From assembly GCA_019056805.1 (NCBI GenBank), contig DXJG01000007.1:1992-65991 (forward strand): a stretch of DNA of 64,000 bases, given 5' to 3'. Source of the DNA: Candidatus Baldrarchaeota archaeon. GTDB lineage: Archaea > Asgardarchaeota > Baldrarchaeia > Baldrarchaeales > DXJG01. Made by a program: the position numbers and the translations under genes. This document shows, piece by piece, positions 3,201 through 19,392 of the stretch; the stretch's first letter is position 1, and the number at the start of each line of letters is the position of its first letter. The notes under the pieces were generated by a model. That model did no database searches, had not been told where the DNA came from, and saw nothing but the letters and a program-made list of their open reading frames with translations.

Positions 3201-6200
3201 ACAATAATTGTAGTCTGCTAACCATATAATTTCTCCATCTAGAGTAATTATGAAGTAGGCTTCTTCAAAAATACTCCACCATGGCGAACTCATATACGTT
3301 GTAATGTTGTAAGTCTCGCCAGTAGTTTCGTCGTAGATTGTTGCATTATATATGAATGCATGGTATGCTTCATATACGTAAATCTTTGTTCCGTTTTCTA
3401 ATATGTAGTAGCGTTTGTATTCGTAGGTTGTTGGATCCCATTCTTCACGTAGCAATCTGTATTCGTATTCGTATCCGTTCCAGAACTTTATTTCTTTTAA
3501 CGGTAGTTTTTCGCCGTTTATTAATATGTAGGGCTTACTTAAGATGAGATATTTCTTGCCATTTGATGTTTCTGCATAGTATCTTGTCTCTGGGTTGGGT
3601 ATGTATACTTCAACGCTTCCATTATTAATGGTATAGACTTTGCTGTATGCCCAGTCTTCTAAAATATGTTCTCCCCATGGTTCAGTATAATCTGGACCAT
3701 ATGTCCAGTTAAGCAAGTTAACACTAAAACTGTATCTTTGGTCATTGGCGTATTCGGTGAAACTCATATTCACTTGAATGAGATACTTTCCATCTTCTGT
3801 GGCGAAAGCACTATAATTGTTTACAATAATATAGGTTTCGTTTACGACTGTGTCTTTGTGATGCCAGTCTAGCCACATATTTATCCATTCACCAGAAGTC
3901 TGGTTGAAAGAGTAGTGTTCCCAATGCCATCCTTCAACTTCTTCCATCGTACCTGTGGTCTCATTCCATATTTCGTACGTACCATACTCGTAGACCTCTT
4001 TGTTAGTTTGATTGTAAACTATTATTTCTGTGGTGTTTTCTCTTAGATTTATTGTTGCAATTATTTCCAAGTTGCTCCATATAGTTTCATTTTCGCTCCA
4101 ATAGTAATTCCAACAGTTGAATCTAACTCTTATTCCATCGACATCGGTTACAAGCTGACTGCCACCTTCCATTTCTACTTCAACTATAAACCATTGGCCA
4201 GGATTAGTCGCAAAATACCAAGTTCCAGAAGTTGCTCCTTCTTGATCTCTAATTCTAACATTAATTACTGGTTTCTCTACGGAAAGTTGATGTGCATTTT
4301 CATATATCCACTCCCAGTCTCTTGGCCATATCCTCCACTGACTACTATATACGTAGTAGTCTATCCATAGGTTTGGCCCAGGATTTCCTATGAACTTCCC
4401 TTCAAATTCTAATATGATTTTATTATCTTCAACGGTTTTTGTGCCGCTTATTAGCTCGTAGAGCCGTAATTCAGAGGGTACCTCCTCGATTTTCCAACCT
4501 TCCACATAGTCAATGTATTGTCCCCATTCATCCTCTTTTAGTGTTTCATTCCAGTATTGGTAGAGCAGATAATAGTTAAAAGTACCGTCTGTATTATTGT
4601 AGAAGAGAAGCAAATTGGGTGAAGCCCAGTCTGTTGTTTCTACCTCATAATATTCTCCTGTTGTTTCGTCCCAGTAAACTCTTGTTACATTTATTTCTTT
4701 AGCAATAGTTACCCATTGCTCCATTAGATATGGTCCAAACACCCACTCCCTTGTTATTATTGTGGCATTTGGATCCCAAACATATGTGTCTAGGGTTTCA
4801 TTGTATACCCAGCCTCCATGATATACCCTGTATTCTTCATGCCACCCCGTCACATTAACATAGGTCCTCAAGCTATATGGAAGACGAATTACTATGCTGG
4901 CGTTTCTAAAATCAGCATCAGATATCCCGGTTATGTTTAGTCTTATGATAAATGTTTGGTTGATTCCAACACTACGGATTAATTCATAGTCTGTGTTTAA
5001 TATTTCTGCTAGGTACGTACCACCATACATCATGTCAAAGTATACTGCTACTTCGTCCCATGGACCGCCTATGGCGACCTCTTTGTATAAGCTTAGTTCA
5101 CTGTCCCAATAATAGTACGAGGATGTACTAATGTAATTGCTTTCATTGTCAAAGATGTTTAGATAGACATTGTATATTCCTTTTGGAGTTAGGTCGTTAA
5201 ACTGGCCTGTTATTACGAAGTTATATTGATCTGGGGTTTCAATTAGGGTTGTTTGACTTTGATTCAATGTAAAGAACTCACCCGTAGTACTGCCGTATGG
5301 GTCTGAATAGTTATAAATAGAGGTCCATGTAGACCAATCATTCGATGAGTAATCGTAGTAAATTGATAGATAGGCGGATATATTTACGGCCCACATATTC
5401 CAAGATAGATCTATTGTTCCAAGTTCGGTGCCTTCTTCAAATAGGAGTTTGGGAATTGTTATGTTTATCATTACAGGTGCGTTTAATTCAATCCATGTGT
5501 CTGGTGTAACCAAATACCAGGTTTCGGTTGTTGTGTTGTAGCAGAATATGTCGTAATGTGCTTTGGGGCCAAACTCCCAGCTTATGTCTCGGTATGTCCA
5601 GTTCCATCCCCATGTTTCGTTGTATAGTCTCCACCATACTCTTATCTCGGGTGGTAAATTCATTACTGATGGGTCGACATAAATTGCGTCTTCAGTTTCA
5701 TAGTATAGTAGCTCACTGAAGAACGGTATGATATGCAAGGTATACGTTGTATCAGCTAGCCAATTTCCTATGATTATTTTGAATCCTACAAAGTTTAAGC
5801 TGGCATTTCTTGCTCTTTCTATAGCGTCTCTTGCGTCAAAAGGCACTGAGCATTCTGGGGTCCCAAAGTCATATGACTGATAGGGTTCAACAGGGTTAAG
5901 TTCATCATTATAAAAGTCTATAAGTACTGATTCGATTGTCGCTCCGTTGTCTATGGAGGCATTAAATCCAGTTAAAAATTCAATTGCTCTTAGTTCTGCT
6001 ATTATTAAGATTTCTACAGTACCGCTATCCGCGCTTGTGTTGGAGAATGTTATAAATAGTTCTCCTTCGATGAAAGAAGCATTAAAGAAGGCTAAAACTC
6101 CTAATTCCTCATTGTAGAATATATATACATTTGGCTCTCCTTCTTCTCCTTCTTCTGGTGGTGGATATTCTGCTCCGCCTGCTTCTACTCTAAAGTGGTG

Positions 6201-6710
6201 CTCTGTGTTTTCAGTCCAGTCTCTTATGGTTACCGTAAACTTAACACAAGTTGCTCCAATGTCAGTTGCTCTTACAGCTATTTCTTCACCGTTTATACTT
6301 ATGGTTGTTCGATCTGTGCCTATGTTGGTGACTGCATAAGTATCTAAAACGTTAAATGCATCATCACAAAGATGTATACTTAATGAATCAATTATGGCGC
6401 CGCCGTCGATGCTTAGTGACAGTTCTTGTAGTCCCCTTACACCGTCAAGTGTGACGTAAATTAATAAATCTACAGTTTCACTGTCTTTTGAACTATTTTG
6501 AAAAGTGATTTCAAGCCCGTTTTCAATTAATGTATAATTGAAATAGTCTAGTGGTTTTCCTTCAGCATAATAGTCTACCATTATTACGGGGCTTTCTCCT
6601 TCCTGTTTTGGTATCATTGCCGAACTTAAGTTAATACTCGAAAGAACTATTAGTACACAAAGTATCACTGAAAAAAGAGGCTTAAAACCTATTTTATTTA
6701 CCATTTTCAT
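258..6710 (-). CDS. Giant cell-surface protein (2150 aa), signal peptide plus C-terminal transmembrane anchor, aromatic-rich and probably N-glycosylated
   Basis: Uninterrupted 6.45-kb ORF. N-terminus MKMVNKIGFKPLFSVILCVLIVLSSINLSSA looks like a signal peptide; C-terminus has one hydrophobic helix (LMYLVIIAVAIIGVAIVIM) followed by RKRKR. Very rich in Y/W/T/N/E with many N-x-S/T sequons and internal repeats (e.g. YILENGTKIYV twice). Confidence 0.85.
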   Translation of the reverse strand: MKMVNKIGFKPLFSVILCVLIVLSSINLSSAMIPKQEGESPVIMVDYYAEGKPLDYFNYTLIENGLEITFQNSSKDSETVDLLIYVTLDGVRGLQELSLSIDGGAIIDSLSIHLCDDAFNVLDTYAVTNIGTDRTTISINGEEIAVRATDIGATCVKFTVTIRDWTENTEHHFRVEAGGAEYPPPEEGEEGEPNVYIFYNEELGVLAFFNASFIEGELFITFSNTSADSGTVEILIIAELRAIEFLTGFNASIDNGATIESVLIDFYNDELNPVEPYQSYDFGTPECSVPFDARDAIERARNASLNFVGFKIIIGNWLADTTYTLHIIPFFSELLYYETEDAIYVDPSVMNLPPEIRVWWRLYNETWGWNWTYRDISWEFGPKAHYDIFCYNTTTETWYLVTPDTWIELNAPVMINITIPKLLFEEGTELGTIDLSWNMWAVNISAYLSIYYDYSSNDWSTWTSIYNYSDPYGSTTGEFFTLNQSQTTLIETPDQYNFVITGQFNDLTPKGIYNVYLNIFDNESNYISTSSYYYWDSELSLYKEVAIGGPWDEVAVYFDMMYGGTYLAEILNTDYELIRSVGINQTFIIRLNITGISDADFRNASIVIRLPYSLRTYVNVTGWHEEYRVYHGGWVYNETLDTYVWDPNATIITREWVFGPYLMEQWVTIAKEINVTRVYWDETTGEYYEVETTDWASPNLLLFYNNTDGTFNYYLLYQYWNETLKEDEWGQYIDYVEGWKIEEVPSELRLYELISGTKTVEDNKIILEFEGKFIGNPGPNLWIDYYVYSSQWRIWPRDWEWIYENAHQLSVEKPVINVRIRDQEGATSGTWYFATNPGQWFIVEVEMEGGSQLVTDVDGIRVRFNCWNYYWSENETIWSNLEIIATINLRENTTEIIVYNQTNKEVYEYGTYEIWNETTGTMEEVEGWHWEHYSFNQTSGEWINMWLDWHHKDTVVNETYIIVNNYSAFATEDGKYLIQVNMSFTEYANDQRYSFSVNLLNWTYGPDYTEPWGEHILEDWAYSKVYTINNGSVEVYIPNPETRYYAETSNGKKYLILSKPYILINGEKLPLKEIKFWNGYEYEYRLLREEWDPTTYEYKRYYILENGTKIYVYEAYHAFIYNATIYDETTGETYNITTYMSSPWWSIFEEAYFIITLDGEIIWLADYNYCLNVEKIGRVPVEFGGYFTVINGTTWVNLTKGWIDWDYIAQEYYILLENGTKIYVRYDYDYMYMYYFERNGKRYYIEYPSAYYVGEYNGKSIIVPEWFKRSWYYTLVGEERVELPYEGVSDEYEWLSWWCLQQPKSEGGAVPEDDYALVNGSLYLIHYDYEGATTGYIIVDGVTYSITKGQGLYTKVSGIDCWDIEEIGFAIFIGNLTNQGSYDRESLIKLYVDYFTYDSTTESGNVTLFNGTLLDVSRHLRVVFFEVNVSGTIYYTVIPEPEYDWENNTYVLYLLNGSRIDLESLEDYEFIGIVTVELGGYEYPGPETFTWNGETYNTTVWINEYRSINLMYDYYRIYTVSGAWYDLIPINWLLHPEWWYTIPPRYYNDLYSYEYEFPIYNITVNGVNYTTNLYVEHIKVARLSWGYPVTWHLEELRWGDVSYRYEVWDVIVGSPEWGLWGYRKWTIDPTTGALDLDGDLSTTDDQFYVKRVYVGEFGWNETVNGLDVNIVYDPNPVIPGDELIVNAWMGTSTNTYWNRWNETYYWFYTNMTPVSPETMAIINETLWDTERNAPKSGYWDIARMARNMTWEDYLKKAEEEGWDWVKEEVTWTWLWFGFQQSYWVSTGENETFQSYHVDLRYEYAGIFIYNDTNDNLIMDEDEATHYFIPEAVGNVIFVTPGEAFGIYNETGMLTLPINESVEFGVSYLDINGTMFPFGRSYYAWYGEEIYGTDLRTFQERPVDASLEELSFKLHFYVENSTATNSTEARIKIDQHIGNWDLDLPTGIAVLENLSLSLNYYIYAETSGSWEVVSEDGTPITPDEIVEASRISLDTSGLKFAEVNMGDTYIWGGNLSMVCNVSTHTIPLSTFVATYTDYESETSVGGWTFQSTMYFLSVGFPKWDGYFVYEDPEVVVYSGKQKKTIVSSLAEFLAGWIPTIGKPGEEAPPPREIPLMYLVIIAVAIIGVAIVIMRKRKRAAMEKSLVKPSKQ

Positions 6711-7031: not shown

Positions 7032-9194
7032 ATGAATGAAATATTAATTTCAGCTGTTTTGATCCTTTTACCTAATATTTTAATAGCTTTGATTGTCCTT
7101 TTGATGAGATATACTCGTTTTAAAGAAATTGCATTGCGTACAGGAATAGCCTTCTCTGCGTTTTGGCTAATATATTGTATTGGCTCAAGTATAGTTTTCA
7201 ATTTGATCGGAGTTGAACCGAACTTAGTTTATTCTTCCCGAGATTTTTCAATATCAAACTTAAAGACTCTTGCAACTTATGTAGTATCTCTAGCAATATA
7301 CTCTCTCACTTTGACAATCACTTACCCGGTTTTCATGTTCCCATTTGTTTTCTTCCTTGCTCCTATAATAGCCGTTTTAATTCTACTTTACGCCGTTAGA
7401 GGAAGAGGAATAAAAGAAATAACTTTTTGGATCGATTTAAAACCCAAAAGATTGATGGGGTGGGATGAAGAAAAAGAGGTTTTGAAACTTTTAATAGCTC
7501 TTCTACCTGTTTCTCTATATTTCTTAACATCATTACTACGAATATTGAAATACGAGGAAGATCCGCTTTCGGTTGGTAGTACCTTGTTGGGCTGGGTACT
7601 TGAAATTTATATGCTTTTTCTTTTATCTTTCATAGTGGCGGTGAATCTTCTTTATACTTCTCGTGTTTATCACGGAAACAGGTTTGTAGGTGAAACTATT
7701 AGAAGAAATACCTTCAATAATCTCTTATCTATAAGTATTGTGCTTTCGTCCGTAAGTCTTATACTTTTTGTACAAATTTTCAAGGGAATCATCTACGTTT
7801 TCATATACTTCTCACTATATTACATTGCGATAACTATTATTTTCCTTTCATTCTTCAAAGTAATGGAACCAACTTCCGTGTATATCTTTGCTAAAATTCT
7901 AACTTTTATGAGAGATGAAAATAAATTCCAAAGAATATTTGAAAAAAGAACGCTTGTACTAGGCATTATAGTTGGTATAGTGGTTACTTTAGCTTCTCTT
8001 TTCTGCACATACGCTTTTATATCGGTTTATTGGAGCTACGTGAATATAGATCTAGATGCCCTTTTAGGTGAATGTTCTTTAGATAGCAGCCCCTCCCTGG
8101 AAATTTTGGAAATTTTAAACATACTTATTTCTTTAGGATCTTTACAAAGATTTTTTGAAATAGCAATTATAATGTTTCTTATCTATGCGCTCAGAAATAT
8201 GGTTAAAATAAAATTTTTCATAGCTGGCATATATGTAGGCATATTTAAGGTATTTGCTGACTATCCCCTTTTACAGCGCGCAACTAAAGCTTGGACTACA
8301 ACTGTATTTTCAAGTGCGAACATTGGTTTCGTCAACATTTTAGTTCCAAGGTTTGCCTATCTAGGATTGACAACTTCTTATCTGGGTTCATCTGTCTATC
8401 AATTTATAGTCATACCTATACTTCTCCTTAAACTTTTAGCAACACTCTTAGTTTTTACTGTTTTAGTTTACTTAAAATTTGGTAAACTTGTTCAGTTTAT
8501 CGATGTTGAAGCTGGACATCAAATAAAATATATATGTGAAGTTGAACCTGACTATATTACTCCTAACTCGTTGATAAAACTGAAAATAGCAAAAATATTT
8601 GAAGAAAAAATTCCAGAAGATCTTTTACAGATCGTAGAATTCTTTAAGACAAAAACATACACTTTTCAAGAATTAAAAGAAAAATTAGGCATGCCTGATG
8701 AAAAATTAAAGAAAATTCTCCGATATCTGCATGAAAATTACATTATTGACATTTACGACTGCGAATTTAAAATAGTTACACCAGCACCAGTGATAGAAGG
8801 AATATATATTGTGAATACAGACGGTATAGCTCTGTACAGTAAGTCATTTGGTGAAGTAAAAGTCGAACCTTTATTGATTTCAGGTATGCTTTCAGCAATA
8901 ACTAGCTTCGTTAAAGAAACAACAAGAAGTCAACAATATTTGCAAGCTATTGATCACGGTGATGTCGTTCTCATGATAGAATATGGAGATGGATTTTTCG
9001 TCACCCTTTTGGCGAACAGAGAAACCCCTGAAATTCGTATGAAATTAAGGGAATTTGTTAGGCGATTCCAAGAAAAATACGGTGAAATTCTCAAACGATG
9101 GAGTGGAGATCCCGGTGAATTTGAAAATGTTGAAAAATTAGTCAATGAAGTTTTTGAAATCACATCTACTAGTGAAGAAATAACCACTACCTAG
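7032..9194 (+). CDS. Polytopic membrane protein with C-terminal cytoplasmic domain (putative roadblock/longin-like alpha/beta domain)
   Basis: First ~500 aa contain many hydrophobic helices; C-terminal ~220 aa are hydrophilic with pattern GIYIVNTDGIALYSKSFG...LISGMLSAITSF...FFVTLLAN...KRWSGDPGEF, homologous to the C-terminus of the 48963..51935 protein. Confidence 0.8.
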   Translation: MNEILISAVLILLPNILIALIVLLMRYTRFKEIALRTGIAFSAFWLIYCIGSSIVFNLIGVEPNLVYSSRDFSISNLKTLATYVVSLAIYSLTLTITYPVFMFPFVFFLAPIIAVLILLYAVRGRGIKEITFWIDLKPKRLMGWDEEKEVLKLLIALLPVSLYFLTSLLRILKYEEDPLSVGSTLLGWVLEIYMLFLLSFIVAVNLLYTSRVYHGNRFVGETIRRNTFNNLLSISIVLSSVSLILFVQIFKGIIYVFIYFSLYYIAITIIFLSFFKVMEPTSVYIFAKILTFMRDENKFQRIFEKRTLVLGIIVGIVVTLASLFCTYAFISVYWSYVNIDLDALLGECSLDSSPSLEILEILNILISLGSLQRFFEIAIIMFLIYALRNMVKIKFFIAGIYVGIFKVFADYPLLQRATKAWTTTVFSSANIGFVNILVPRFAYLGLTTSYLGSSVYQFIVIPILLLKLLATLLVFTVLVYLKFGKLVQFIDVEAGHQIKYICEVEPDYITPNSLIKLKIAKIFEEKIPEDLLQIVEFFKTKTYTFQELKEKLGMPDEKLKKILRYLHENYIIDIYDCEFKIVTPAPVIEGIYIVNTDGIALYSKSFGEVKVEPLLISGMLSAITSFVKETTRSQQYLQAIDHGDVVLMIEYGDGFFVTLLANRETPEIRMKLREFVRRFQEKYGEILKRWSGDPGEFENVEKLVNEVFEITSTSEEITTT

Positions 9195-9333: not shown

Positions 9334-10464
9334 TTGGGTTTTAAAGAATTAAATATTGGAGACAATGTTCTATCAGCAATTTACACGATGGGCTATGAAG
9401 AACCATCACCTATACAAAAAGAGACAATACCATTGATTTTATCTGGAAGAGACGTAATAGGACAGGCGAGGAGTGGAAGTGGAAAAACAGCGGCTTTCGG
9501 TATACCTTTAGTAGAAATGACAGACCTAGCGGATCATAATGTTCAAGCTTTAATACTTACACCAACAAGAGAACTGGCAGAGCAAGTATCGAGGGAAATA
9601 GCTAACATCGGAAGAAAAAGAAGAGTAAAAGTATATGCCATTTATGGTGGCGTACCCATTGGACCTCAAATGGAAAAATTACGGAGAGGAATACATATAC
9701 TTGTTGGGACTCCTGGACGTTTACTTGATCATTTACGGAGAAGGACATTAAATCTTCGAAATGTTAGAGTGGTTGTTTTAGATGAGGCTGATAGAATGCT
9801 TGATATGGGCTTTATAGACGATATTTCAACAATTCTTTTCCATGCAAAAAACAGAAAACAAACGTTATTATTTTCTGCGACTATGCCTTACGAGGTAATA
9901 GAATTATCAAGAAAGTATATGAAGAACCCTATAGCTGTAAAAATTTCTCGAGACGAGTTAATTGTTGAACATATAGACCAATATTATGTTGAGACAAGTC
10001 GAAAAAATAAGTTAGAAGTTTTAATGAGAATCTTAGATGAACATCATGGGAAGAAGATCATGGTTTTCTGTGCAACAAAGAGAAAGACAACGCATGTCGC
10101 TTGGAAACTGAGAAAATCAAGATACTCTACACTTTGTTTGAATGGAGATATGACTCAAGGTCAAAGAAACTGGTCAATGGCAGTCTTTAGAGAACCAGGT
10201 AGCAAAATACTTGTAGCGACCGACGTAGCTTCCAGAGGAATAGATGTACCCACGACAGATTTGGTGATAAACTTCGATATTCCAAGGAATTTGAAAGATT
10301 ATGTTCATAGAATAGGTCGAGCAGGAAGATTTGACAGAAGAGGAAAATCTATAACACTAATAACACAAGAAGATCACTCATTCTTAAGAAGAATACTTAG
10401 ATCTAACAAAATGGAAAAATACTATTTCAGCGGTAAACGTAAATTTGATAAACGTAGATTTTAA
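9334..10464 (+). CDS. DEAD-box ATP-dependent RNA helicase
   Basis: Motif I GQARSGSGKT, Ia PTRELA, II VLDEADRMLDMGF (DEAD), III SAT, VI HRIGRAGR. TTG start per ORF track. Confidence 0.93.
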   Translation: MGFKELNIGDNVLSAIYTMGYEEPSPIQKETIPLILSGRDVIGQARSGSGKTAAFGIPLVEMTDLADHNVQALILTPTRELAEQVSREIANIGRKRRVKVYAIYGGVPIGPQMEKLRRGIHILVGTPGRLLDHLRRRTLNLRNVRVVVLDEADRMLDMGFIDDISTILFHAKNRKQTLLFSATMPYEVIELSRKYMKNPIAVKISRDELIVEHIDQYYVETSRKNKLEVLMRILDEHHGKKIMVFCATKRKTTHVAWKLRKSRYSTLCLNGDMTQGQRNWSMAVFREPGSKILVATDVASRGIDVPTTDLVINFDIPRNLKDYVHRIGRAGRFDRRGKSITLITQEDHSFLRRILRSNKMEKYYFSGKRKFDKRRF

Positions 10465-10781: not shown

Positions 10782-13700
10782 GTGTTTCACCCTGATTTTA
10801 ACAAGAAGGCTTCTCCAACAACTAAATTAATATCTATGCTTCTGCTTTTAGCTCTTCTCTTAACCTACTGCTACTATCCAGCGACATTGTTTACGAATAC
10901 AAACTATCCGCAAACTACCTCCCTACTAATTTATAGAGACAATGAAACCACTGATAGCTTGACAAAGGTATCTTACGATGACGAAAATTTACAAGAATGG
11001 TTAAGTTCACTTAGAAGCTTAGAGGTTCCAGCAGGATCTCCAATGGATATTTATCCCGTTAGGGAGAGCATAGCTGTTGATTTATGGCCGGGAATCTATT
11101 TTCCGGAGGATGTTGAAATTTATAAGCCTCTTATAGAGGATCTTCATGCTCAAGGAATAAAATATATGATTTATAGGAATTTTTACATGGTTACTGATGT
11201 AAACTACACTTACCTATGTGAGTATTATCCTGGTTTCAATGCATCGAATGCTGGTTTTATAGATTTAGATGGAAACCCGTATATAGTAGATTATGATCCC
11301 TACGGTACACCAATATTTAGAGCTTCAACAAATAGACCTTATTGGCAAAGTTTTCTCATAAATTCAACGAAATTAGCTATCGATGCTGGTGTAGATGCTG
11401 TTGTTTTTGATGTTGGATTTGGACATTATCCTCCAAATGAGTTAAATTTTGATCCAGATAGCATTAAAGATTTTAGAGAATACCTAGCAGAAAAATATAC
11501 TTCAGAAGAATTGGCTTCAAAATTTAATATTTCTGACATTTCTACATTCGATTTTGGGCAGTATCTTAGAGATCTAGGATATAATGCTAGTAGTTTAAGG
11601 GAAGCTTTAACGCAAGGAACATCATTGGGATACTATGCTGATTTGTTATGGTCGGAGTGGTGTGAATTTCATCTTAAAGTTTTGGTGGAGTTTTATAAGA
11701 GACTTTATACCGAGGTAAAAGAATATGCTCAAAGTAAAGGACGAGATTTCTATGTTTTCTCCAATATTTATCATGGTCTTGATCCCCAGTACAATATACT
11801 CTATTTGATTAATTATGTGGATGGTATCTATGCAGAAATTTTCTTTGATGATTTACAGTATCCAAATAGAACTCCAGCAACAGTTTATAAGGTAGCTTAT
11901 AGTTTAGGGAAACATTATATCCCTATGACTTCTCCATCCAACGATTCGGAACTATATCCATTATATATTGCAGAGCTTTTTGCATGTGGCAGCTGGACGG
12001 GTGGAGCAGGAAACTATACTCCATATTTCCTTTTTGTTAACTCGCATCCTGAACTATTCAGTAAGGAACAGGACGGTGAAATAGGACTTGTTTACTCTTT
12101 AGCTTCAAGTGAAAACTATAGTTCATTTGAGGGTGCCTTTTACCTTCTCTCTGATACCCAGCGTAGTTTTGATGTTATTGTTTTTGGAGATAATAAGTGG
12201 TTTAATGAAAGCTTGACATTAAATGACTTGTTAAAGTATAGAGCAATTTTACTACCTAATACTGGTTATCTTACAGATGAACAAGTTGAATTGCTTCTGA
12301 ACTATGCTGAACAAGGTGGTATTCTAATAGGCATTGGAAGTGTTGGAACACGAAATGAAACCGGGGAAATTGTCAACTCAGAGACTCGAACAACGTTTAT
12401 CAGCCTTTTTAATGGTAGCATAGTTTCTTATGGAAGTGGAACAGTTATTTCATGGACCAGTGATATAGCTTTACAGTACTTATTGCAGAGAAATACAACA
12501 CTTTTAGAAGAATTTGAAAATAGATTAAGTGAAGTGTTTTCTCCCGAAATCATAACAAGCTTTACCCACAATACCACTATATTTCAATACTGGGATCCTG
12601 AATCTAATGCTATGATCTTTCATTTCTTAAATCGTGAATATGACTCCAAAAACGATGTAATAACACCTCAACACGATGTGAGCTTTAAGTTTACTTTAAG
12701 ACCTGAATTGGACGGTCTTCCTCTTGAAATAAGATTTTATTCACCGAATGACTATTTCGAAGGAATAGAGTTGACTTACAGCTCAGATCCTAATGGATAT
12801 GTGGAAGTAACAATTCCGAAAGTACATATATGGGGTATTTTGCGTGTGGAAGCTAAGAAAAAAGCAGTACAAGAAGATTTAGTAATTAACAGTCCAACCG
12901 TGCTTAAGGATCAAGTTATAGTTTTGAACGGTAACCTATTAGTTAACTCAAAGTTGACATTGGAGAATGTTATTTTAAAGATGAATAGTTCCCTTGACAG
13001 GGTGTTTCGAATAGAAGTTTATGAAGGAGGAGAACTTGTTATCAAAGACTCTGTCATTACTGCGTATGATCCAAAGTATCACTATTATGTTAAGGTGAAT
13101 AAGGGCAGTCGGTTCTATATGGAGAATAGTGAGTTAAGCCATGCTGGTGTTTGGGGACCTATGTATGCTGGAGGGCTGTGGATAAACACGGATGATGTCA
13201 TAATCTTAAACTGTACAATACATAGTAATTATGACTATGGAATACATGTATATAATGCTTCATACGTCGAGATAATAAACTGTAAAATTTACGGCAACAA
13301 TATAGGAATATACTTGCTCAATTCATCTTTCGTAACCATCTCTAAATGTAACATTTACGATAATTCAATTGGTATCTACGAAAAGGGAAGCTACTATTCT
13401 ACAATCAAACACAGTCATATCTCAAATAATTTATACTGGGGAATAACAATTTGGGACTCTCTATTCCCATTAATATCTGATAGTACCATTCATGATAGTG
13501 TCCATGATGGAATTATCATTTGGTACTCGTTTTTCGCAAAAATTTACAACTGCAAAGCTTACAGTAATGAAAATGGTTTTAACATACGATACACGCCTTT
13601 AGTGACAGTTTCAAGTAGCGAAGTGTATAACAATGAGGAGGCAGGCTTGTTTTTCTTCCATGTTGAGCTTCTGTATGGTCATCCGTTGGCAATTCTTGAT

Positions 13701-15104
13701 TCTCTTGGCACTATAGTTGCTAACAGTTTTTACAATAACACATATGGCATATACATGTTGGAAAGTGAAAAAACTAAGATTGAAGCTTGCAATATACTTG
13801 ATAACACGTGGGGAATATATGTTGAAGGAACTACTCAATGCACTTTCATTTTCCGTTCAAACTTCATTGATAACACCGATCACATTTATGTTGATGAAAA
13901 GGCTCAAGGAAAAATTCAATTTGACAACATAACAATTGGAAACTACTGGGATGACCACAGTGGAGAAGATGCTGATGGTGATGGTATTATTGATACACCT
14001 TATACTATTAACTCGGTAGATAAAGACTATAAGCCGCTAGCTAATCCAGTTACTATCGTAAAAATAGAAGATATATATGGGCCTATGATCACGGACATTC
14101 AAGTCGTGAAAGAAGAGGGAAATGAAAATTACAATTTAACAATATCTGTTAATGTCACTGATGATTCTTGGTTAAGTTGGGTTTTAATGAACGGAACAAT
14201 ACATAATTTGCCGGGTGGAGAAAACTATCCTTTGATGCGTATAATGGTATATTTCTACGATCCCTTTGCTACTATCTTAGGCTATGATAGGTCAAACTTC
14301 AATCTTCTTCCATCAGAAGGATATCCTCTCAAAACATGTACAGCTTCAACTCAGTTCACTTTTCCTCTTAGCTATAAGCCTCATTTCAAGATTTTTGCTG
14401 TGGATACCTATGGGAACTGGGCTGAAAATGACTCTACAACTCCTCATATAACTGGTATATTTTGGGATCCAAGTAGTCCTGAATATGATGAAGAGGTAAC
14501 TGTGTTTGTTCATGTATTTGATCAAAGCAGGATATCTGAATGTTTACTAAGTTACTTTAATGGAACAGAGTGGAATAACGTTTCAATGATATATAATGAG
14601 GAAACAAATGCAATGGTTGGAAGCATTCCAAAACAACCATATGGAGTTACAGTAGAATTCAAGGTAATTGTTAAAGATACTATGAACAATATAGCTGTAA
14701 GTGCAACTTATTCTTACACTGTTAAAGATACTACTCCGCCAATATTGAGAATAATTCAGCCAAGTGGCGGAGAAACAATTTCTAATGATGTTAATGTTAC
14801 TTGGGAGTCCTATGATGAAGGTTCGGGGTTAAAAGAATTCAAAATTTATTTAAATGGAACATTAAAAGCTACTTTGCCCCCTACAACATCCTGTTATCTT
14901 CTATCTAACTTAACACCAGGTTCTTACAATGTTACAGTTGAAGCTGTGGATAATGCTGGCAACCGTGCAACTGCATCAATAGTTTTCAAGTATGTCTCTG
15001 AAGAAGGTGGATTACCTAACTCTCTCATACTCATGGGAGGAACAATAGCCGGTGTTGTAATTATAGTTACAGTGTTTTTAATGAGAAAGAAACTAAAAGA
15101 TTGA
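10782..15104 (+). CDS. Large surface-anchored protein (1440 aa) with parallel beta-helix (PbH1/NosD-like) repeats and Ig-like domains
   Basis: N-terminal hydrophobic segment; central run of repeats of the type IINCKIYGNNIGIYLLNSSFVTISKCNIYDNSIGIY typical of right-handed beta-helix proteins; Ig-like region near the C-terminus; C-terminal TM anchor LILMGGTIAGVVIIVTVFLMRKKLKD. N-terminal ~600 aa may be a glycoside-hydrolase-like domain (weak). Confidence 0.85.
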   Translation: MFHPDFNKKASPTTKLISMLLLLALLLTYCYYPATLFTNTNYPQTTSLLIYRDNETTDSLTKVSYDDENLQEWLSSLRSLEVPAGSPMDIYPVRESIAVDLWPGIYFPEDVEIYKPLIEDLHAQGIKYMIYRNFYMVTDVNYTYLCEYYPGFNASNAGFIDLDGNPYIVDYDPYGTPIFRASTNRPYWQSFLINSTKLAIDAGVDAVVFDVGFGHYPPNELNFDPDSIKDFREYLAEKYTSEELASKFNISDISTFDFGQYLRDLGYNASSLREALTQGTSLGYYADLLWSEWCEFHLKVLVEFYKRLYTEVKEYAQSKGRDFYVFSNIYHGLDPQYNILYLINYVDGIYAEIFFDDLQYPNRTPATVYKVAYSLGKHYIPMTSPSNDSELYPLYIAELFACGSWTGGAGNYTPYFLFVNSHPELFSKEQDGEIGLVYSLASSENYSSFEGAFYLLSDTQRSFDVIVFGDNKWFNESLTLNDLLKYRAILLPNTGYLTDEQVELLLNYAEQGGILIGIGSVGTRNETGEIVNSETRTTFISLFNGSIVSYGSGTVISWTSDIALQYLLQRNTTLLEEFENRLSEVFSPEIITSFTHNTTIFQYWDPESNAMIFHFLNREYDSKNDVITPQHDVSFKFTLRPELDGLPLEIRFYSPNDYFEGIELTYSSDPNGYVEVTIPKVHIWGILRVEAKKKAVQEDLVINSPTVLKDQVIVLNGNLLVNSKLTLENVILKMNSSLDRVFRIEVYEGGELVIKDSVITAYDPKYHYYVKVNKGSRFYMENSELSHAGVWGPMYAGGLWINTDDVIILNCTIHSNYDYGIHVYNASYVEIINCKIYGNNIGIYLLNSSFVTISKCNIYDNSIGIYEKGSYYSTIKHSHISNNLYWGITIWDSLFPLISDSTIHDSVHDGIIIWYSFFAKIYNCKAYSNENGFNIRYTPLVTVSSSEVYNNEEAGLFFFHVELLYGHPLAILDSLGTIVANSFYNNTYGIYMLESEKTKIEACNILDNTWGIYVEGTTQCTFIFRSNFIDNTDHIYVDEKAQGKIQFDNITIGNYWDDHSGEDADGDGIIDTPYTINSVDKDYKPLANPVTIVKIEDIYGPMITDIQVVKEEGNENYNLTISVNVTDDSWLSWVLMNGTIHNLPGGENYPLMRIMVYFYDPFATILGYDRSNFNLLPSEGYPLKTCTASTQFTFPLSYKPHFKIFAVDTYGNWAENDSTTPHITGIFWDPSSPEYDEEVTVFVHVFDQSRISECLLSYFNGTEWNNVSMIYNEETNAMVGSIPKQPYGVTVEFKVIVKDTMNNIAVSATYSYTVKDTTPPILRIIQPSGGETISNDVNVTWESYDEGSGLKEFKIYLNGTLKATLPPTTSCYLLSNLTPGSYNVTVEAVDNAGNRATASIVFKYVSEEGGLPNSLILMGGTIAGVVIIVTVFLMRKKLKD

Positions 15105-15333: not shown

Positions 15334-16560
15334 TTGCAGTTTGGAGCTTTCTTTGGTATTTGGCTGATTTTCTTAATATTTATATTTATGCTAGCTGCTG
15401 AAGAAAGTCAAAGGAGAAAAGAAACTTTTCAGAAAATATATTCATGGTTAAAACAGAAATCTAAAAAGATATATTATGAAAAAGGCGGCTTTTTGAAAAG
15501 ACCTAGAATTATTGCAGAATTGAAACCAGAAATGGAATTGGAACGAGTTGAAGTTACAACATTTACTGTTCACCACGGGTATTATACAGGTACACATTAC
15601 GCTTCACATGCAAGAACTTATCTTAGAATCTTGGGTACGAGTGAGGAAGGTACTTTTGTAAACATCACTATAAGAGATGAAGGTCTTTTTGATAAACTTG
15701 CTATAGGGCTAGGACTTACAAAAGATATAGATTCAGGAGACCCCATATTTGATCAAACACATAGAATTAAAAGTGGAACACCTGAAATCGCCCTTAAACT
15801 CCTAAAGGATAAACAATTTAGAGATTATGTATCAATGATTCGTGATTTAAGGAAGTTTGAAATTAGAGGAGGAAAACATTTACATTTTATAGTTGAGTGT
15901 AATTATGACGTTTCATCTGCTGTGAATGCTATTTTAGCTATGGAAAGAACTGCAGAAGTTTTAGCGCCAGAGATTGAAAGAAAACCAGTAAAGGTTGAAA
16001 AAGCAAGACCCGTAACCCCGAAAGTAGAGCCTCGCAGAGCCGTAAGTTCCGAGGTAACGTTGAAATTGAAGAAAGAGTTTGAAAAATTGTCAATTTCTGT
16101 TTCTAAATTAGAATTTAAACCTTCAGAAGAAAACTTCACTAGGGTGATCATTACACCTTTACTAGGCGAATTCGATTACGTGCAATATGAAATCACTGAA
16201 AAATTGAAGGTAAGAGCTTTGGATAATCTTGAGAAACCTGCAAGTAAAACAATTACGATTCAGATATACCCCAAAGATATGAAAACAACCTCAACTCAAA
16301 AACCTACCTCTATTGAGGAAATCAAGACATTATTTGATATTAGGTGTGAGGATCAAGAAGTTTTAAGAAGAATTTCCGAAGCATACATACTTTTTGAAGT
16401 ATTAAGCGAGATTAAAGAATTGTCTAACTTCAATGTAAAACTGCAAGGCCAAACAATGGAAATATACTTAGAATGTGGCTTAAATCCAGAGAATATTAGG
16501 AGAGCTTATGAAGTAATCAGAGAAGCTGCATGGTGGACAAAATTCTATATACTAATTTAA
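15334..16560 (+). CDS. Uncharacterised membrane-anchored protein, paralog family member 1
   Basis: N-terminal TM helix; about 50-60 percent identical by eye to the 16723..17955 product, with shared blocks RVIITPLLGEFDYVQYEI and EEIKTLFDIRCEDQEVLRRISEAYILF. Confidence 0.75.
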   Translation: MQFGAFFGIWLIFLIFIFMLAAEESQRRKETFQKIYSWLKQKSKKIYYEKGGFLKRPRIIAELKPEMELERVEVTTFTVHHGYYTGTHYASHARTYLRILGTSEEGTFVNITIRDEGLFDKLAIGLGLTKDIDSGDPIFDQTHRIKSGTPEIALKLLKDKQFRDYVSMIRDLRKFEIRGGKHLHFIVECNYDVSSAVNAILAMERTAEVLAPEIERKPVKVEKARPVTPKVEPRRAVSSEVTLKLKKEFEKLSISVSKLEFKPSEENFTRVIITPLLGEFDYVQYEITEKLKVRALDNLEKPASKTITIQIYPKDMKTTSTQKPTSIEEIKTLFDIRCEDQEVLRRISEAYILFEVLSEIKELSNFNVKLQGQTMEIYLECGLNPENIRRAYEVIREAAWWTKFYILI

Positions 16561-16722
16561 ATCTGAACACTTTGTCTTTATTATTAATCTGTTTTAATTC
16601 TCCGGCTTTAATTTCTTTTTAGAAATACATAGAAGCATGAAAATGAAAATACTTAAATAAATGTACTTGATTTTAACTTATGAGTAATTATAGAAAGCTA
16701 TCTTGAGGGGGAATAATATAGG

Positions 16723-17955
16723 TTGTACTCTTTATGGTTTATATGCTTGTGGTTTGCATGTTCAACGTTGGTAATTATATTAGCTATTTGGTTTGAAAAA
16801 ATAAGAAAAGCAAGAATAACAGAAATCTTTCAGGAAATTTTCTTTTGGTTAAAAGAGAAATCTGAAAGAATACGTTATGAAAATCATAAAAACCCTAGAA
16901 TTACAGCTGAGTTAAAACCAGAATGGCAATTAGATCAGGTTGAAGTTACAACGTTTATTGATAAATATGAACACTATTACGACTACTATATGTTACGTGC
17001 ATCTGAAAGATTTAATCTTAGGATTTTAGGTGTAGGTGAGGGGAAACATTTTGTAAGTCTTGCTATAAAAGATAAAGTCCCTTTTGATAGAAGTGTTTTA
17101 GGATCAGGGTTTGCAGAATATGTAAAATCTGGAGATCCAGTATTTGATCATTGGCATATCATTAGGAGTAAAACACCTCAAGCCGCTCTCAAACTTTTAA
17201 AAGACGATAAATTTAGAAGCTACATCAGTAATATACACAAATTAAGAATTTTCAAAATTGAGGGAGATGGAACTCTAAGTTTTACTGTTGAATGTAACTA
17301 TGATCCAATATCTGCTAAAAATGCCATTTTGGCTATGAAAAGAGTATTAGAAGTTCTATCACCAAAAACTAAGGAAAAAACTGCCGTTAGTGAAAGGGTT
17401 AAACCCGCTGTTTTAAAAGCTGAACCTCAGAAAATTATAGATCCCGAATTACTTTTAAACTTAAGAAAAGAATTTGAAAAATTATCGACCCATGTTTCTA
17501 AGTTAGAGTTTAAACCCTTGGAGGAAAATTTCTCTAGAGTGATCATTACTCCTTTACTAGGCGAATTCGATTACGTGCAATATGAAATTGCTGAAAAATT
17601 GAAAGTAGAAGCAATAGACGACCTTAAGAAAACTGTAGAAAAACCCATTACAATTGAAATACGTCCTAAAGAAGTAACGTTATCATTAGGTCAAAAAATA
17701 GCTTTTATTGAGGAAATCAAGACATTATTTGATATTAGGTGTGAGGATCAAGAAGTTTTAAGAAGAATTTCCGAAGCATACATACTTTTTGATTCTTTGA
17801 GCAAAATCAAAGAATTGTCTATCTTCAGCATAAAGTTGCAAGATTCAACGTTGAAAATATGTTTAGAATGTAGTGTCGATCCTGAAAACATCAGAAAAGC
17901 TTATGAAGCAGTTAAAGAAGCTGTCAATCTGGTTAAATTCCACCTATTAATCTAG
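16723..17955 (+). CDS. Uncharacterised membrane-anchored protein, paralog family member 2
   Basis: Same architecture and conserved blocks as 15334..16560; tandem arrangement. Confidence 0.75.
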   Translation: MYSLWFICLWFACSTLVIILAIWFEKIRKARITEIFQEIFFWLKEKSERIRYENHKNPRITAELKPEWQLDQVEVTTFIDKYEHYYDYYMLRASERFNLRILGVGEGKHFVSLAIKDKVPFDRSVLGSGFAEYVKSGDPVFDHWHIIRSKTPQAALKLLKDDKFRSYISNIHKLRIFKIEGDGTLSFTVECNYDPISAKNAILAMKRVLEVLSPKTKEKTAVSERVKPAVLKAEPQKIIDPELLLNLRKEFEKLSTHVSKLEFKPLEENFSRVIITPLLGEFDYVQYEIAEKLKVEAIDDLKKTVEKPITIEIRPKEVTLSLGQKIAFIEEIKTLFDIRCEDQEVLRRISEAYILFDSLSKIKELSIFSIKLQDSTLKICLECSVDPENIRKAYEAVKEAVNLVKFHLLI

Positions 17956-18214
17956 GACTCGAAATATCTCATAACCATATACATCTAGTTATTTTCCGAC
18001 ATATATTGCGGTTGGAAGAAAAAATTTGCTTAAATGGATATATGTTGCTCTTCGAATTTTAGGTAGATACTGGTTTTGAATTCGTGTATTTTGAGGTTTC
18101 AAATGTGGAAGAAATGATACATCAATCGTCATTATTATCCTTTGTAAAAATAAAAACTACGACAAATATTTAAATAAGGTAAATTGAATAAATAGTTAAG
18201 AAGGTGGGGATTAG

Positions 18215-18875
18215 ATGCAGTTTGGTTCCTATTTTTTGCTTTGGTTAATTGTTATAACTCTACCGATAATTTTGGCACCTATTTTCCTAATATTTCTAGA
18301 GAAAAAGAAGATAAAAGAAACTTTACAGCAAACTTACTCTTGGTTAAAAGAAAAATCTCCAAAAAATATACATTGATAAGGTTCATACAAAGAATCCCAA
18401 GATCATAGCCGAGATAAAACCAGAATGGCAATTAGATCAGGTTGAAGTTACAACGTTTCCTATAGGTGCTTTTACATCTCCCAGGCGCGGTCTGTTTTTC
18501 TTCTTTCCAAGAAACTACTTTAGTATCTCAGGTATAAAGGAAATAGAATCGCCTATAAAATTTGTAGTAACGGGAAGAGATCCTTTGTCTGTAACCATTG
18601 CCAGATCGGAGTTTAAACATGATTTTGAGACAGGAGATCCCGTATTTGACCGAAGATACATGGTTAAGGGTGAAGACTCTGAAGCGATTCCCAAGATTCT
18701 AAGTGATTCTAAGTTTAGAAGCTACATATTGGGAATATACGATCTGATAAAGTTTGAAGTCAGAGGAAATAAACATGTAAGTTTCATAGCTGAGTGCAAC
18801 CCTGATATTAAATCTGTAGAAAACAGCATTTTAGCAATGAAAAGAATAATAGAAATTTTATCAGAAACCATCTAA
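18215..18875 (+). pseudogene. Decayed third copy of the tandem paralog family (frameshifted N-terminus, truncated C-terminus)
   Basis: A short ORF from ~18215 (MQFGSYFLLWLIV...SWLKEKSPKNIH-stop) matches the paralog N-termini, then similarity continues in another frame (KNPKIIAEIKPEWQLDQVEVTTF ... GDPVFD ... FRSYI ... ECN ... ILAMKR) and stops at 18875, lacking the ~230-aa C-terminal half. A 43-bp stretch is identical to copy 2. Confidence 0.6.
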
Positions 18876-19071: not shown

Positions 19072-19392
19072 GTGAACAGTACTCAGCATGGAAATAGGCA
19101 GAGCTCTATAAGGATTCAAGTGAAGTTCTTGGCGTCGTTAAAACATATTTTGGGAGTTAAAAATGTTGATTTGGAAATTTCTCAGCCAATGAAGTTGATA
19201 GAAGTTTTAAATTTACTTGTAGAAAAATATGGAGAAAAATTCAGGGAAGCTGTGTTTGATGAAGAAGGAAAAGTTAGAAATGAGCTTCTTATCTTGGTGA
19301 ATGATGCGGAAATCTCTGTGCTTAACGGATTAGATACTAAAATATCTGATGGAGATACAATAACTCTACTACCTACAGTGCATGGAGGATAA
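19072..19392 (+). CDS. MoaD/ThiS-family ubiquitin-like small protein (SAMP-like) with C-terminal Gly-Gly
   Basis: 106 aa ending in ...TITLLPTVHGG; size and diglycine terminus are typical of the beta-grasp sulfur-carrier/modifier family. GTG start preceded by GGAGG. Confidence 0.75.
   Translation: MNSTQHGNRQSSIRIQVKFLASLKHILGVKNVDLEISQPMKLIEVLNLLVEKYGEKFREAVFDEEGKVRNELLILVNDAEISVLNGLDTKISDGDTITLLPTVHGG

What the first reader, a model, noticed from the sequence alone, without database searches (positions are those of the whole stretch)
16312..16397. Identical 86-bp and 38-bp DNA tracts inside otherwise diverged paralogs (gene conversion signature)
About 86 bp at ~16312..16397 in copy 1 are identical to ~17707..17792 in copy 2, and ~38 bp at ~16156..16193 are identical to ~17551..17588, while the surrounding coding sequence is clearly diverged at both DNA and protein level. 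Such mosaic identity is typical of recent gene conversion between tandem paralogs, or of strong nucleotide-level constraint such as an embedded RNA or protein-binding site.
Basis: seen in the sequence. Interest (0 to 1): 0.45.

Follow-up and report, generated by a model that had tools for sequence, protein, structure and literature searches.

The report
Gene conversion between tandem archaeal paralogs
Two neighbouring, otherwise strongly diverged copies of an uncharacterised membrane-anchored protein gene in an Asgard (Baldrarchaeia) archaeon share short, perfectly identical DNA patches because one copy was recently used as template to overwrite part of the other; this is a clean but ordinary case of gene conversion.

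Summary
Window 16311-16397 equals 17706-17792 (87 nt) and 16156-16193 equals 17551-17588 (38 nt), inside two tandem genes, c1 (15334-16560) and c2 (16723-17955). These genes are otherwise 55% identical in protein and 67% in DNA, with saturated synonymous sites. Shuffles never reproduce such runs (0/20000), or do so in 2/20000 when only synonymous choices are reshuffled.

Orthologues from about ten other Baldrarchaeia contigs vary freely in the tract: 45 of 84 sites vary. The only other contig with two full-length copies has 66% identity there. There is no RNA-fold signal and no Rfam hit, so nucleotide-level constraint is rejected.

Segment trees show the cause. In the flanks c1 and c2 lie in two different C-domain clades (99% bootstrap). 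In the tracts c2 jumps into c1's clade as its sister (99%). So c1 was the donor and c2 the acceptor.

A third exact tract of 44 nt links c2 (16913-16956) to the frameshifted third copy, c3 (18415-18458). A related contig shows smaller tracts of the same kind. Three assemblies give identical sequence.

Verdict: recent short-patch gene conversion in a three-gene array. This is a known kind of event and of low to moderate interest. As a side lead, the protein's predicted fold resembles CCDC47 and TtfA.

The parts
15334..16560 (+). Paralog c1 (type A). It encodes 408 aa from a TTG start that is homologous to the ATG of c3 and L010n. It has an N-terminal TM helix, an N-domain, a linker and a C-domain of clade 'x'. 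It is the donor of tracts A and B.
   Evidence: ORF. It is identical to P0017/P0003. The closest orthologue is L013, at 82% aa identity. Clade assignment.
16723..17955 (+). Paralog c2 (type B), 410 aa. Its N-domain is sister to L014b and its C-domain flanks belong to clade 'y'. It is the acceptor of the converted patches.
   Evidence: (P0001).
18215..18875 (+). Paralog c3 (type C). It has the N-domain only and is disrupted by a 1-nt insertion near 18359, so it is a pseudogene or carries a sequencing error. It is the partner of the 44-nt tract.
   Evidence: Alignment to the intact orthologue L010:2029-2688.
16311..16397 (+). Tract A, copy in c1 (donor copy); 87 nt exact.
   Evidence: It is about 0.80 identical to x-type orthologues and about 0.70 to y-type.
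17706..17792 (+). Tract A, copy in c2 (converted copy). It encodes residues 329-357, a helix-strand-helix-helix element of the C-domain.
16156..16193 (+). Tract B, copy in c1; 38 nt exact. The high-identity stretch extends to 16212, with 54 of 57 nt identical.
17551..17588 (+). Tract B, copy in c2.
16913..16956 (+). Tract C, copy in c2; 44 nt exact. It encodes (L)KPEWQLDQVEVTTF.
   Evidence: (family D2).
18415..18458 (+). Tract C, copy in c3.

Best explanation
The locus is a tandem array of three old paralogs (A = c1, B = c2, C = c3) of a small, Baldrarchaeia-restricted family of N-terminally membrane-anchored proteins. A full-length member has two similar domains; c3 has only the first.

The identical tracts are the footprints of recent, non-reciprocal, short-patch homologous recombination (gene conversion) within the array. 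A strand from one copy paired with the neighbouring copy 1.4-1.5 kb away, and short intervals of the heteroduplex were copied from donor to recipient.

For the 87-nt tract and the 38-nt tract (54 of 57 identical when extended), c1 was the donor and c2 the recipient. For the 44-nt tract, c2 and c3 exchanged sequence. There the direction is not resolved; the 3' half looks c3-derived.

Shown here: the identity, the loss of all synonymous divergence, the restriction to this genome, the phylogenetic jump of c2's tracts into c1's clade, and reproducibility in three assemblies. Inferred: the molecular pathway (RadA-type strand exchange with localised mismatch resolution, as described for Sulfolobus acidocaldarius in PMC3367456), and whether tracts A and B come from one patchily resolved heteroduplex or from two events. 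No function needs to be attached to the tracts themselves.
For: (1) Exact identity over 87, 38 and 44 nt against a 67% DNA-identity background. Permutation tests gave 0/20000 and 2/20000.

(2) dS is 0.0 in tract A, against about 1 to 2.5 or saturation elsewhere. The neighbouring segment 16060-16155 has a low dN (0.097) but saturated dS, so protein-level selection alone does not preserve codons in this gene.

(3) Orthologues vary in tract A at 45 of 84 sites, both synonymous and non-synonymous. In tract A, c1 and c2 share residues (T, R, Q, F) that no other aligned family member has.

(4) NJ bootstrap trees. In the C-domain flanks, x{c1,L001,L010,L013,L016,L014b} separates from y{c2,L004,L006,L007,L011,L014a} at 99%. 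In the tracts, c1+c2 are sister at 99% inside x, and the y clade without c2 has 97% support. Identity values agree.

(5) The only other contig with two full-length copies (L014) shows 66% and 56% identity in the two tracts and no exact repeat of 17 nt or more.

(6) The same kind of footprint recurs. There is the 44-nt tract between c2 and c3. In the close relative L013 there are 34-nt and 20-nt exact tracts between its A and B genes. N-domain and C-domain types are combined differently in the window and in L014, which suggests older domain-scale exchanges.

(7) The sequence is reproduced with 0 mismatches in JGI contig Ga0209426_1000791 over 13.2 kb and in a contig from a different IMG metagenome record (3300002532). 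That contig begins exactly at the first base of the 87-nt repeat.

(8) A short-patch, discontinuous conversion mode is documented in an archaeon (PMC3367456).
Against: Before conversion the two copies were probably only about 70% identical in this stretch, judging from x-type versus y-type identity. The present flanks hold no identical run longer than 13 nt. In bacteria this would be poor substrate for classical homologous recombination, so the event needs a mismatch-tolerant pathway. That pathway is inferred, not shown, for this lineage.

No unconverted c2 allele from a very close relative is available to show the state before conversion. The three assemblies may derive from related samples, so they confirm the sequence but not independent populations. 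The direction of the 44-nt tract is ambiguous: there are 4 differences to the c3 orthologue L010n, 7 to the c2 relatives L014b/L011n, and a mixed pattern of character states.
Confidence: 0.88

Rival explanations
1. Nucleotide-level functional constraint: the tracts hold an embedded RNA element, an internal promoter or a protein-binding site, and its sequence is held fixed in both copies.
For: Perfect identity including synonymous sites is what such an element would also produce. A genome-specific element cannot be formally excluded.
Against: The tract is not conserved at the DNA level in any orthologue or in the L014a/L014b pair. 45 of 84 sites vary in the family. RNA folding z-scores are -0.13, +0.43, +1.09 and +1.55. 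There is no Rfam match at E<=1 apart from a chance CRISPR-DR hit elsewhere in the gene. Constraint would also not explain why c2's tract switches clade.
Confidence: 0.03
2. Assembly or polishing artefact: the identity was created by the assembler, or by reads mis-mapped between the copies.
For: The source is a metagenome-assembled contig. One short contig (L018) breaks exactly at the repeat, which shows that the repeat does perturb assembly.
Against: Three assemblies of different contig length (108 kb NCBI, 26 kb JGI, 1.7 kb JGI from another metagenome record) agree base for base. A contig that breaks at the repeat is what a true repeat of at least k-mer length gives. Reads from sequence only about 70% identical would not cross-map so as to homogenise exactly 87 nt. 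The tract is in frame and homologous to orthologues.
Confidence: 0.03
3. The reverse history: c2's C-domain is a recent copy of c1, and the identical tracts are what is left after the intervening segments were replaced by recombination with diverged alleles from other lineages.
For: The family is mosaic. N-domain and C-domain types are combined differently in the window and in L014. Recombination is therefore frequent, and incoming DNA from other lineages is conceivable.
Against: It needs at least three separate replacements with precise boundaries instead of one or two small conversions. c2's flanks have no close relative in the databases: the best identity is 0.71-0.74 and the best matches are scattered over different contigs. 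That pattern fits an old resident paralog. c2's N-domain is a distinct ancient type (B), grouping with L014b at 100% bootstrap.
Confidence: 0.04
4. Protein-level purifying selection plus codon bias gives identical codons by chance.
For: The tract lies in a structured, relatively conserved element of the C-domain. The genome is AT-rich and has biased codon usage.
Against: With the amino-acid pattern fixed, only 2 of 20000 synonymous reshuffles reach 87 nt, and that pool includes the tract's own codons. (126/192)^28 = 7.5e-6. The equally conserved segment 16060-16155 has saturated dS. The residues themselves differ among orthologues.
Confidence: 0.01

Closest known systems
Intragenomic gene conversion (concerted evolution) of prokaryotic paralogs. 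Concerted evolution in prokaryotes is surveyed in PMC6053082. From my own knowledge, examples include bacterial tuf genes and archaeal chaperonin subunit genes.
   Same: There is non-reciprocal homogenisation of a segment between paralogs in one genome. Within the segment the paralogs are closer to each other than to their orthologues. Synonymous sites are erased.
   Different: The tracts here are very short (38-87 nt). They sit in genes that are otherwise extremely diverged (55% aa identity), and the gene as a whole is not evolving in concert. The host is an uncultivated Asgard archaeon.
Short-patch, discontinuous gene-conversion mode of homologous recombination in Sulfolobus acidocaldarius (PMC3367456)
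   Same: Several short donor tracts are separated by unconverted recipient sequence, and the partners are moderately diverged. Tracts A and B, about 100 nt apart, fit patchy resolution of one heteroduplex.
   Different: That work used transformation with marked pyrE DNA in a crenarchaeon. Here the event is natural, intrachromosomal and only inferred from sequence. Whether Baldrarchaeia lack MutS/MutL was not tested.
Cassette-based segmental gene conversion for surface variation (Neisseria pilE/pilS, Borrelia vlsE; from my own knowledge)
   Same: A tandem array includes a truncated or pseudogene copy (c3) that shares an exact patch with an intact copy.
   Different: There is no evidence of a programmed system, of many silent cassettes or of hypervariable regions. 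Positive charges after the TM helix suggest that the bulk of the protein is cytoplasmic rather than surface-exposed (inference from the sequence).
Diversity-generating retroelement template/variable repeats
   Same: There is a pair of near-identical repeats about 100 nt long, one of them in the 3' part of a gene.
   Different: Both copies are coding and in register within homologous genes. There are no mismatches at all, so no adenine-specific mutagenesis. Pfam scans of every ORF of at least 150 aa from 258 to 30891 found no reverse transcriptase.

Membership tests
Gene conversion between paralogs | A segment of paralog identity far above the background of the same gene pair | tested here: met
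   87, 38 and 44 nt are exact against 67% overall DNA identity. Shuffles gave 0/20000.
Gene conversion between paralogs | Synonymous divergence is erased in the segment but high outside it | tested here: met
   dS is 0.0 in tract A and 0.22 in tract B, against about 1 to 2.5 or saturation elsewhere. Identical codons: 28/28 inside, 126/192 outside.
Gene conversion between paralogs | Phylogenetic incongruence: paralogs group by genome in the segment and by orthology in the flanks | tested here: met
   In the flanks, c1 is in clade x and c2 in clade y (99% bootstrap). In the tracts, c1+c2 are sister (99%) inside x.
Gene conversion between paralogs | Non-reciprocal: the donor keeps its native sequence and the acceptor is overwritten | tested here: met
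   The tract sequence is about 0.80 identical to c1-type orthologues and about 0.69 to c2-flank relatives. The direction of the 44-nt tract is unresolved.
Gene conversion between paralogs | The unconverted state is seen in a sister lineage or in population variants | not testable with these tools
   No genome close enough that carries a full-length c2 was found. No reads are available.
Embedded structured RNA or conserved DNA site | Nucleotide conservation across orthologues | tested here: not met
   45 of 84 sites vary. L014a and L014b are 66% identical.
Embedded structured RNA or conserved DNA site | Stable fold beyond shuffles, or a match to a known RNA family | tested here: not met
   z-scores lie between -0.13 and +1.55. 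No relevant Rfam match.
Diversity-generating retroelement | Reverse transcriptase nearby, and TR/VR mismatches at adenines | tested here: not met
   No RT domain in any ORF of at least 150 aa from 258 to 30891. The tracts have no mismatches.
CCDC47 (PF07946) / TtfA-like membrane-biogenesis factors (for the encoded protein, not the tracts) | Sequence-profile match to the family | tested here: not met
   No Pfam hit at E<=10 for 11 members or at E<=0.1 for 10 distant members. A PDB profile search finds neither protein.
CCDC47 (PF07946) / TtfA-like membrane-biogenesis factors (for the encoded protein, not the tracts) | Fold similarity of the globular domain, plus a single TM anchor | tested here: inconclusive
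   [not shown]

The most novel reading that the evidence does not exclude
The array is more than a passive target of recombination. Repeated segmental exchange among the A, B and C cassettes, including the truncated or pseudogene copy, could be a selected way of shuffling variants of a Baldrarchaeia-specific, membrane-anchored protein. The two domains of that protein have the fold of eukaryotic CCDC47 (the ribosome-associated PAT-complex / multipass-translocon subunit) and of mycobacterial TtfA. If so, this would be an unrecognised Asgard structural relative of a eukaryotic ER membrane-protein biogenesis factor, sitting in a recombinationally active locus.
Probability: 0.08. Interest if true: 0.65.

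Novelty: new member of a known kind. Interest (0 to 1): 0.27.

Why it matters
Taken alone, this is a textbook footprint of gene conversion. It matters mainly as a documented natural example of very short-patch, mismatch-tolerant recombination in an uncultivated Asgard archaeon, a group with no recombination genetics. It also gives a practical warning: trees of this small family, and of any Asgard paralog array, will be distorted unless mosaic segments are removed. It does not open a new question.

The more interesting by-product is the encoded family. It is orphan in sequence and restricted to a few Baldrarchaeia contigs, yet its predicted fold is closest to CCDC47 and TtfA. That lead deserves a proper structural-homology analysis, separate from this finding.

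Tried and rejected
- The exact-sequence look-up of c2 with an M start found nothing, because the collection stores the JGI version starting with L. This was resolved through P0016.
- The Foldseek afdb50 library was unavailable.
- Pfam scans of c1, c2 and c3, of all 11 aligned members at E<=10 and of 10 distant members gave no informative family.
- A profile search of PDB sequences gave only a chance hit to Csm1.
- The Rfam scan gave only a sub-threshold CRISPR-DR hit at 15511-15544 (18.9 bits against a gathering score of 38), which I treat as chance.
- RNA folding of both tracts on both strands showed no excess stability.
- A DGR reading was considered and rejected: no RT, no A-biased mismatches, and both repeats are coding.
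- A surface-antigen cassette system was considered and judged unlikely, because the positive-inside rule places the domains in the cytoplasm.
- Literature searches for archaeal homologues of CCDC47, and for any published link between CCDC47 and TtfA, found nothing.

Full report
**The observation**

The region holds three tandem + strand paralogs.
- c1 runs from 15334 to 16560 and encodes 408 aa.
- c2 runs from 16723 to 17955 and encodes 410 aa.
- c3 is a third, shorter copy at about 18215-18875. It covers only the first domain and is read in two frames.

Window 16311-16397 is identical to 17706-17792 (87 nt), and 16156-16193 is identical to 17551-17588 (38 nt). Both pairs sit at offset 1395, so they are in register in the two genes. 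The 87-mer occurs nowhere else in the window, even when three mismatches are allowed.

The codon alignment shows that the rest of the genes is strongly diverged:
- Protein identity is 54.7%.
- DNA identity is 67.2% over 1215 aligned nt.
- 60-nt windows range from 0.48 to 0.78 outside the two tract regions. They rise to 0.93 around 16153-16212 and to 1.00 at 16333-16392.

**Is it more than chance?**

Outside tract A, only 126 of 192 codons that encode the same degenerate amino acid in both copies are the same codon. Inside tract A, 28 of 28 are.

Three shuffling tests were run:
- With codon columns shuffled over the whole gene, the longest identical run averages 19 nt and never exceeds 48 nt. 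None of 20000 shuffles reaches 87.
- Within the better-conserved C-domain alone, 0 of 20000 shuffles reach 87, and 1 of 20000 has a second run of at least 38.
- A deliberately conservative test keeps the amino-acid pattern fixed and only redistributes synonymous codon pairs, with the tract's own codons left in the pool. It reaches 87 nt in 2 of 20000 shuffles and has a second run of at least 38 in 37 of 20000.

Nei-Gojobori dS between c1 and c2 is 0.0 in tract A and 0.22 in 16156-16209. Everywhere else it is about 1 to 2.5, or not computable because of saturation. The segment 16060-16155 is instructive: its dN is only 0.097 but its dS is saturated. Protein-level selection in this gene therefore does not preserve codons.

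**What the genes are**

Neither copy matches any Pfam family.

The word-indexed search of 5.8 billion proteins found 15 relatives, all at 52-57% identity to c2. One is labelled Candidatus Baldrarchaeia. A full HMM search of 1.84 billion cluster representatives found only 19 proteins at E<=1e-3. The one hit among GTDB species genomes is a Baldrarchaeota MAG, JAEOSG010000010. The family is therefore a small orphan family of an Asgard lineage.

The neighbouring genes are ordinary chromosomal genes:
- a 1440-aa beta-helix/NosD protein with Ig-like domains, upstream;
- Urm1/ThiS and a CN-hydrolase, downstream;
- a DEAD-box helicase, Cdc48, a MoxR/VWA protein and saccharopine dehydrogenase.
No reverse transcriptase and no recognisable mobile-element gene turned up in these scans, although the two large ORFs at 258-6710 and 7032-9194 matched no Pfam family.

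An AlphaFold2 model of c2 has mean pLDDT 77.6. It shows:
- an N-terminal helix, residues 2-44, comprising the TM segment and an extension;
- two similar alpha/beta domains, residues 47-212 and 241-408;
- a disordered linker joining the two domains.
Tract A encodes residues 329-357, a helix-strand-helix-helix element of the second domain.

**Comparison with relatives: the decisive test**

I collected about ten distinct orthologous loci from metagenomes and one MAG and built a codon alignment.

In tract A the orthologues differ from the window, and from each other, at both synonymous and non-synonymous sites. 45 of 84 sites are variable in the family. Several residues shared by c1 and c2 (T, R, Q, F) are found in no other aligned member.

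Only one other contig, L014, carries two full-length copies in tandem. There the two copies are 66% identical in tract A and 56% in tract B, with no exact repeat of 17 nt or more.

This rules out a nucleotide-level element conserved in the family. In line with that, the tracts fold no better than shuffled sequence, with z between -0.13 and +1.55 on both strands. Rfam gives nothing relevant.

**Direction and phylogenetic signature**

Neighbour-joining trees with 500 bootstraps were built per segment.
- N-domain: c2 groups with L014b (100%), which I call type B. c1 groups with L013 (99%), type A.
- C-domain flanks (16210-16308 plus 16399-16557): the family splits into clade x {c1, L001, L010, L013, L016, L014b} and clade y {c2, L004, L006, L007, L011, L014a} with 99% support.
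- The two tracts: c2 leaves clade y. That clade is recovered without c2 at 97%, and c2 becomes the sister of c1 (99%) inside clade x.

The raw identities agree. Both window copies are about 0.80 identical to x-type orthologues and about 0.69 to y-type in tract A. In the intervening segment, c2 is closest to L004/L007 (0.74) and c1 to L013/L001 (0.73-0.74).

The tract sequence is therefore native to c1 and foreign to c2. c1 was the donor and c2 the acceptor. The event is younger than the split from the closest available relative, L013, which has dS 0.4-0.6 to c1.

**More footprints of the same process**

A systematic scan of the array found a third exact tract. It is 44 nt long, 16913-16956 in c2 = 18415-18458 in c3. 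These two copies are otherwise only about 37% identical in protein.

This tract has 4 differences to the intact c3 orthologue L010n and 7 to the c2 relatives L014b/L011n. Its character states are mixed, so the direction is unresolved.

The closest relative, L013, has 34-nt and 20-nt exact tracts between its A gene and its N-only B gene. No other locus has any exact tract of 17 nt or more.

Array composition differs between contigs:
- A+B+C in the window;
- A plus an N-only B in L001, L013 and L016;
- A+C in L004, L006, L007 and L010;
- A followed by B in L014 and L011. Both copies are full-length type in L014, although its A gene is cut by the contig end. In L011 the contig ends inside the B gene.

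The x and y C-domain types are attached to opposite N-domain types in the window and in L014. My reading, which is inference, is that this array has a long history of unequal exchange, deletion and conversion. The tracts under study are the most recent events.

**Is the sequence real?**

JGI contig Ga0209426_1000791 matches the window with 0 mismatches over 13.2 kb.

A 1701-nt contig from a different IMG metagenome record (3300002532) matches window 16311-18011 with 0 mismatches. It starts exactly at the first base of the 87-nt repeat. That is what de Bruijn assemblers do at a genuine repeat. The contig carries c1's tract with c1-specific downstream sequence, the intergenic spacer, and the whole of c2 including its own tract. 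An assembly or polishing origin for the identity is therefore very unlikely, although read-level confirmation is still missing.

**Mechanism**

The best-supported explanation is intrachromosomal, non-reciprocal homologous recombination between direct repeats 1.4-1.5 kb apart.

One feature calls for comment. The partners were probably only about 70% identical in this stretch before the event, and the present flanks offer at most 13 identical bases. That is poor substrate for classical bacterial recombination.

It does fit the short-patch, discontinuous conversion mode described for Sulfolobus acidocaldarius. There, heteroduplex between moderately diverged DNAs is resolved by uncoordinated local excision and refilling, which gives several short donor tracts separated by recipient sequence (PMC3367456).

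Tracts A and B are separated by about 100 nt of unconverted y-type sequence. They could be one such patchily resolved heteroduplex or two separate events. The three mismatches in the extended tract B (54 of 57 identical over 16156-16212) slightly favour an older, separate event. These mechanistic steps are inferred, not shown.

**Comparison with what is known, and novelty**

Gene conversion and concerted evolution of prokaryotic paralogs are well established (for example PMC6053082). This is a new and unusually clean instance, in an Asgard archaeon and with very short tracts in very divergent genes. It is not a new kind of phenomenon.

A DGR reading fails: there is no RT, there are no A-specific mismatches, and both repeats are coding. 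A programmed cassette system is not supported. It remains the most novel reading that I cannot fully exclude.

**Side lead**

There is no sequence-level support. I found no literature on archaeal CCDC47-like proteins. This is a resemblance and not a membership claim.

**Verdict**

Interest is low to moderate.

Noticed in passing
[not shown]
   Followed up: partly
These two copies are otherwise about 37% identical in protein. The direction of transfer is unresolved.
   Followed up: yes
window 18215-18875 (about 18359): The third paralog (N-domain only, type C) carries a single extra C relative to the intact orthologue L010:2029-2688. This shifts the frame after about 48 codons, so it is either a pseudogene or a homopolymer-adjacent sequencing error. 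The same base is present in the JGI contig L002.
   Followed up: partly
L018 (JGI 3300002532, contig JGI24019J35510_1012307) 1-1701 = window 16311-18011: A short contig from a different IMG metagenome record begins exactly at the first base of the 87-nt repeat and is identical to the window. This is an assembler break at a true repeat.
   Followed up: yes
L013 8401-8434 = 9786-9819 and 8547-8566 = 9932-9951: The closest related contig shows its own 34-nt and 20-nt exact tracts between its full-length A gene and its N-only B gene. The B gene there has two in-frame stops. This suggests that conversion is recurrent in this array.
   Followed up: partly
L014 (ENA hydrothermal-vent metagenome contig) 2-700 and 897-2060, compared with window c1 and c2: N-domain type and C-domain type are combined in opposite ways in the two genomes. 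In the window they are A+x and B+y. In L014 they are A-like+y and B+x. L004, L006 and L007 carry A+y followed directly by type C. This implies older exchanges or deletion-fusions of whole domains within the array.
   Followed up: partly
P0035 (532 aa): A distant hit (E 2.8e-4) joins Arrestin_N and Arrestin_C domains to a C-terminal region that matches this family's second domain. It may be a domain fusion in another (unknown) organism.
   Followed up: no
window 10782-15104 and 258-6710: Very large proteins flank the array. One is a 1440-aa beta-helix/NosD protein with Ig-like domains and a C-terminal hydrophobic anchor. The other is a 2150-aa ORF with no Pfam hit here. In L013 a 1956-aa gene in the corresponding upstream, minus-strand position is annotated Peptidase_S8.
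   Followed up: no
window 19072-19392: A Urm1/ThiS-type ubiquitin-like small protein ending in GG lies directly downstream of the array, followed by a CN-hydrolase. The same pair follows the array in L015.
   Followed up: no
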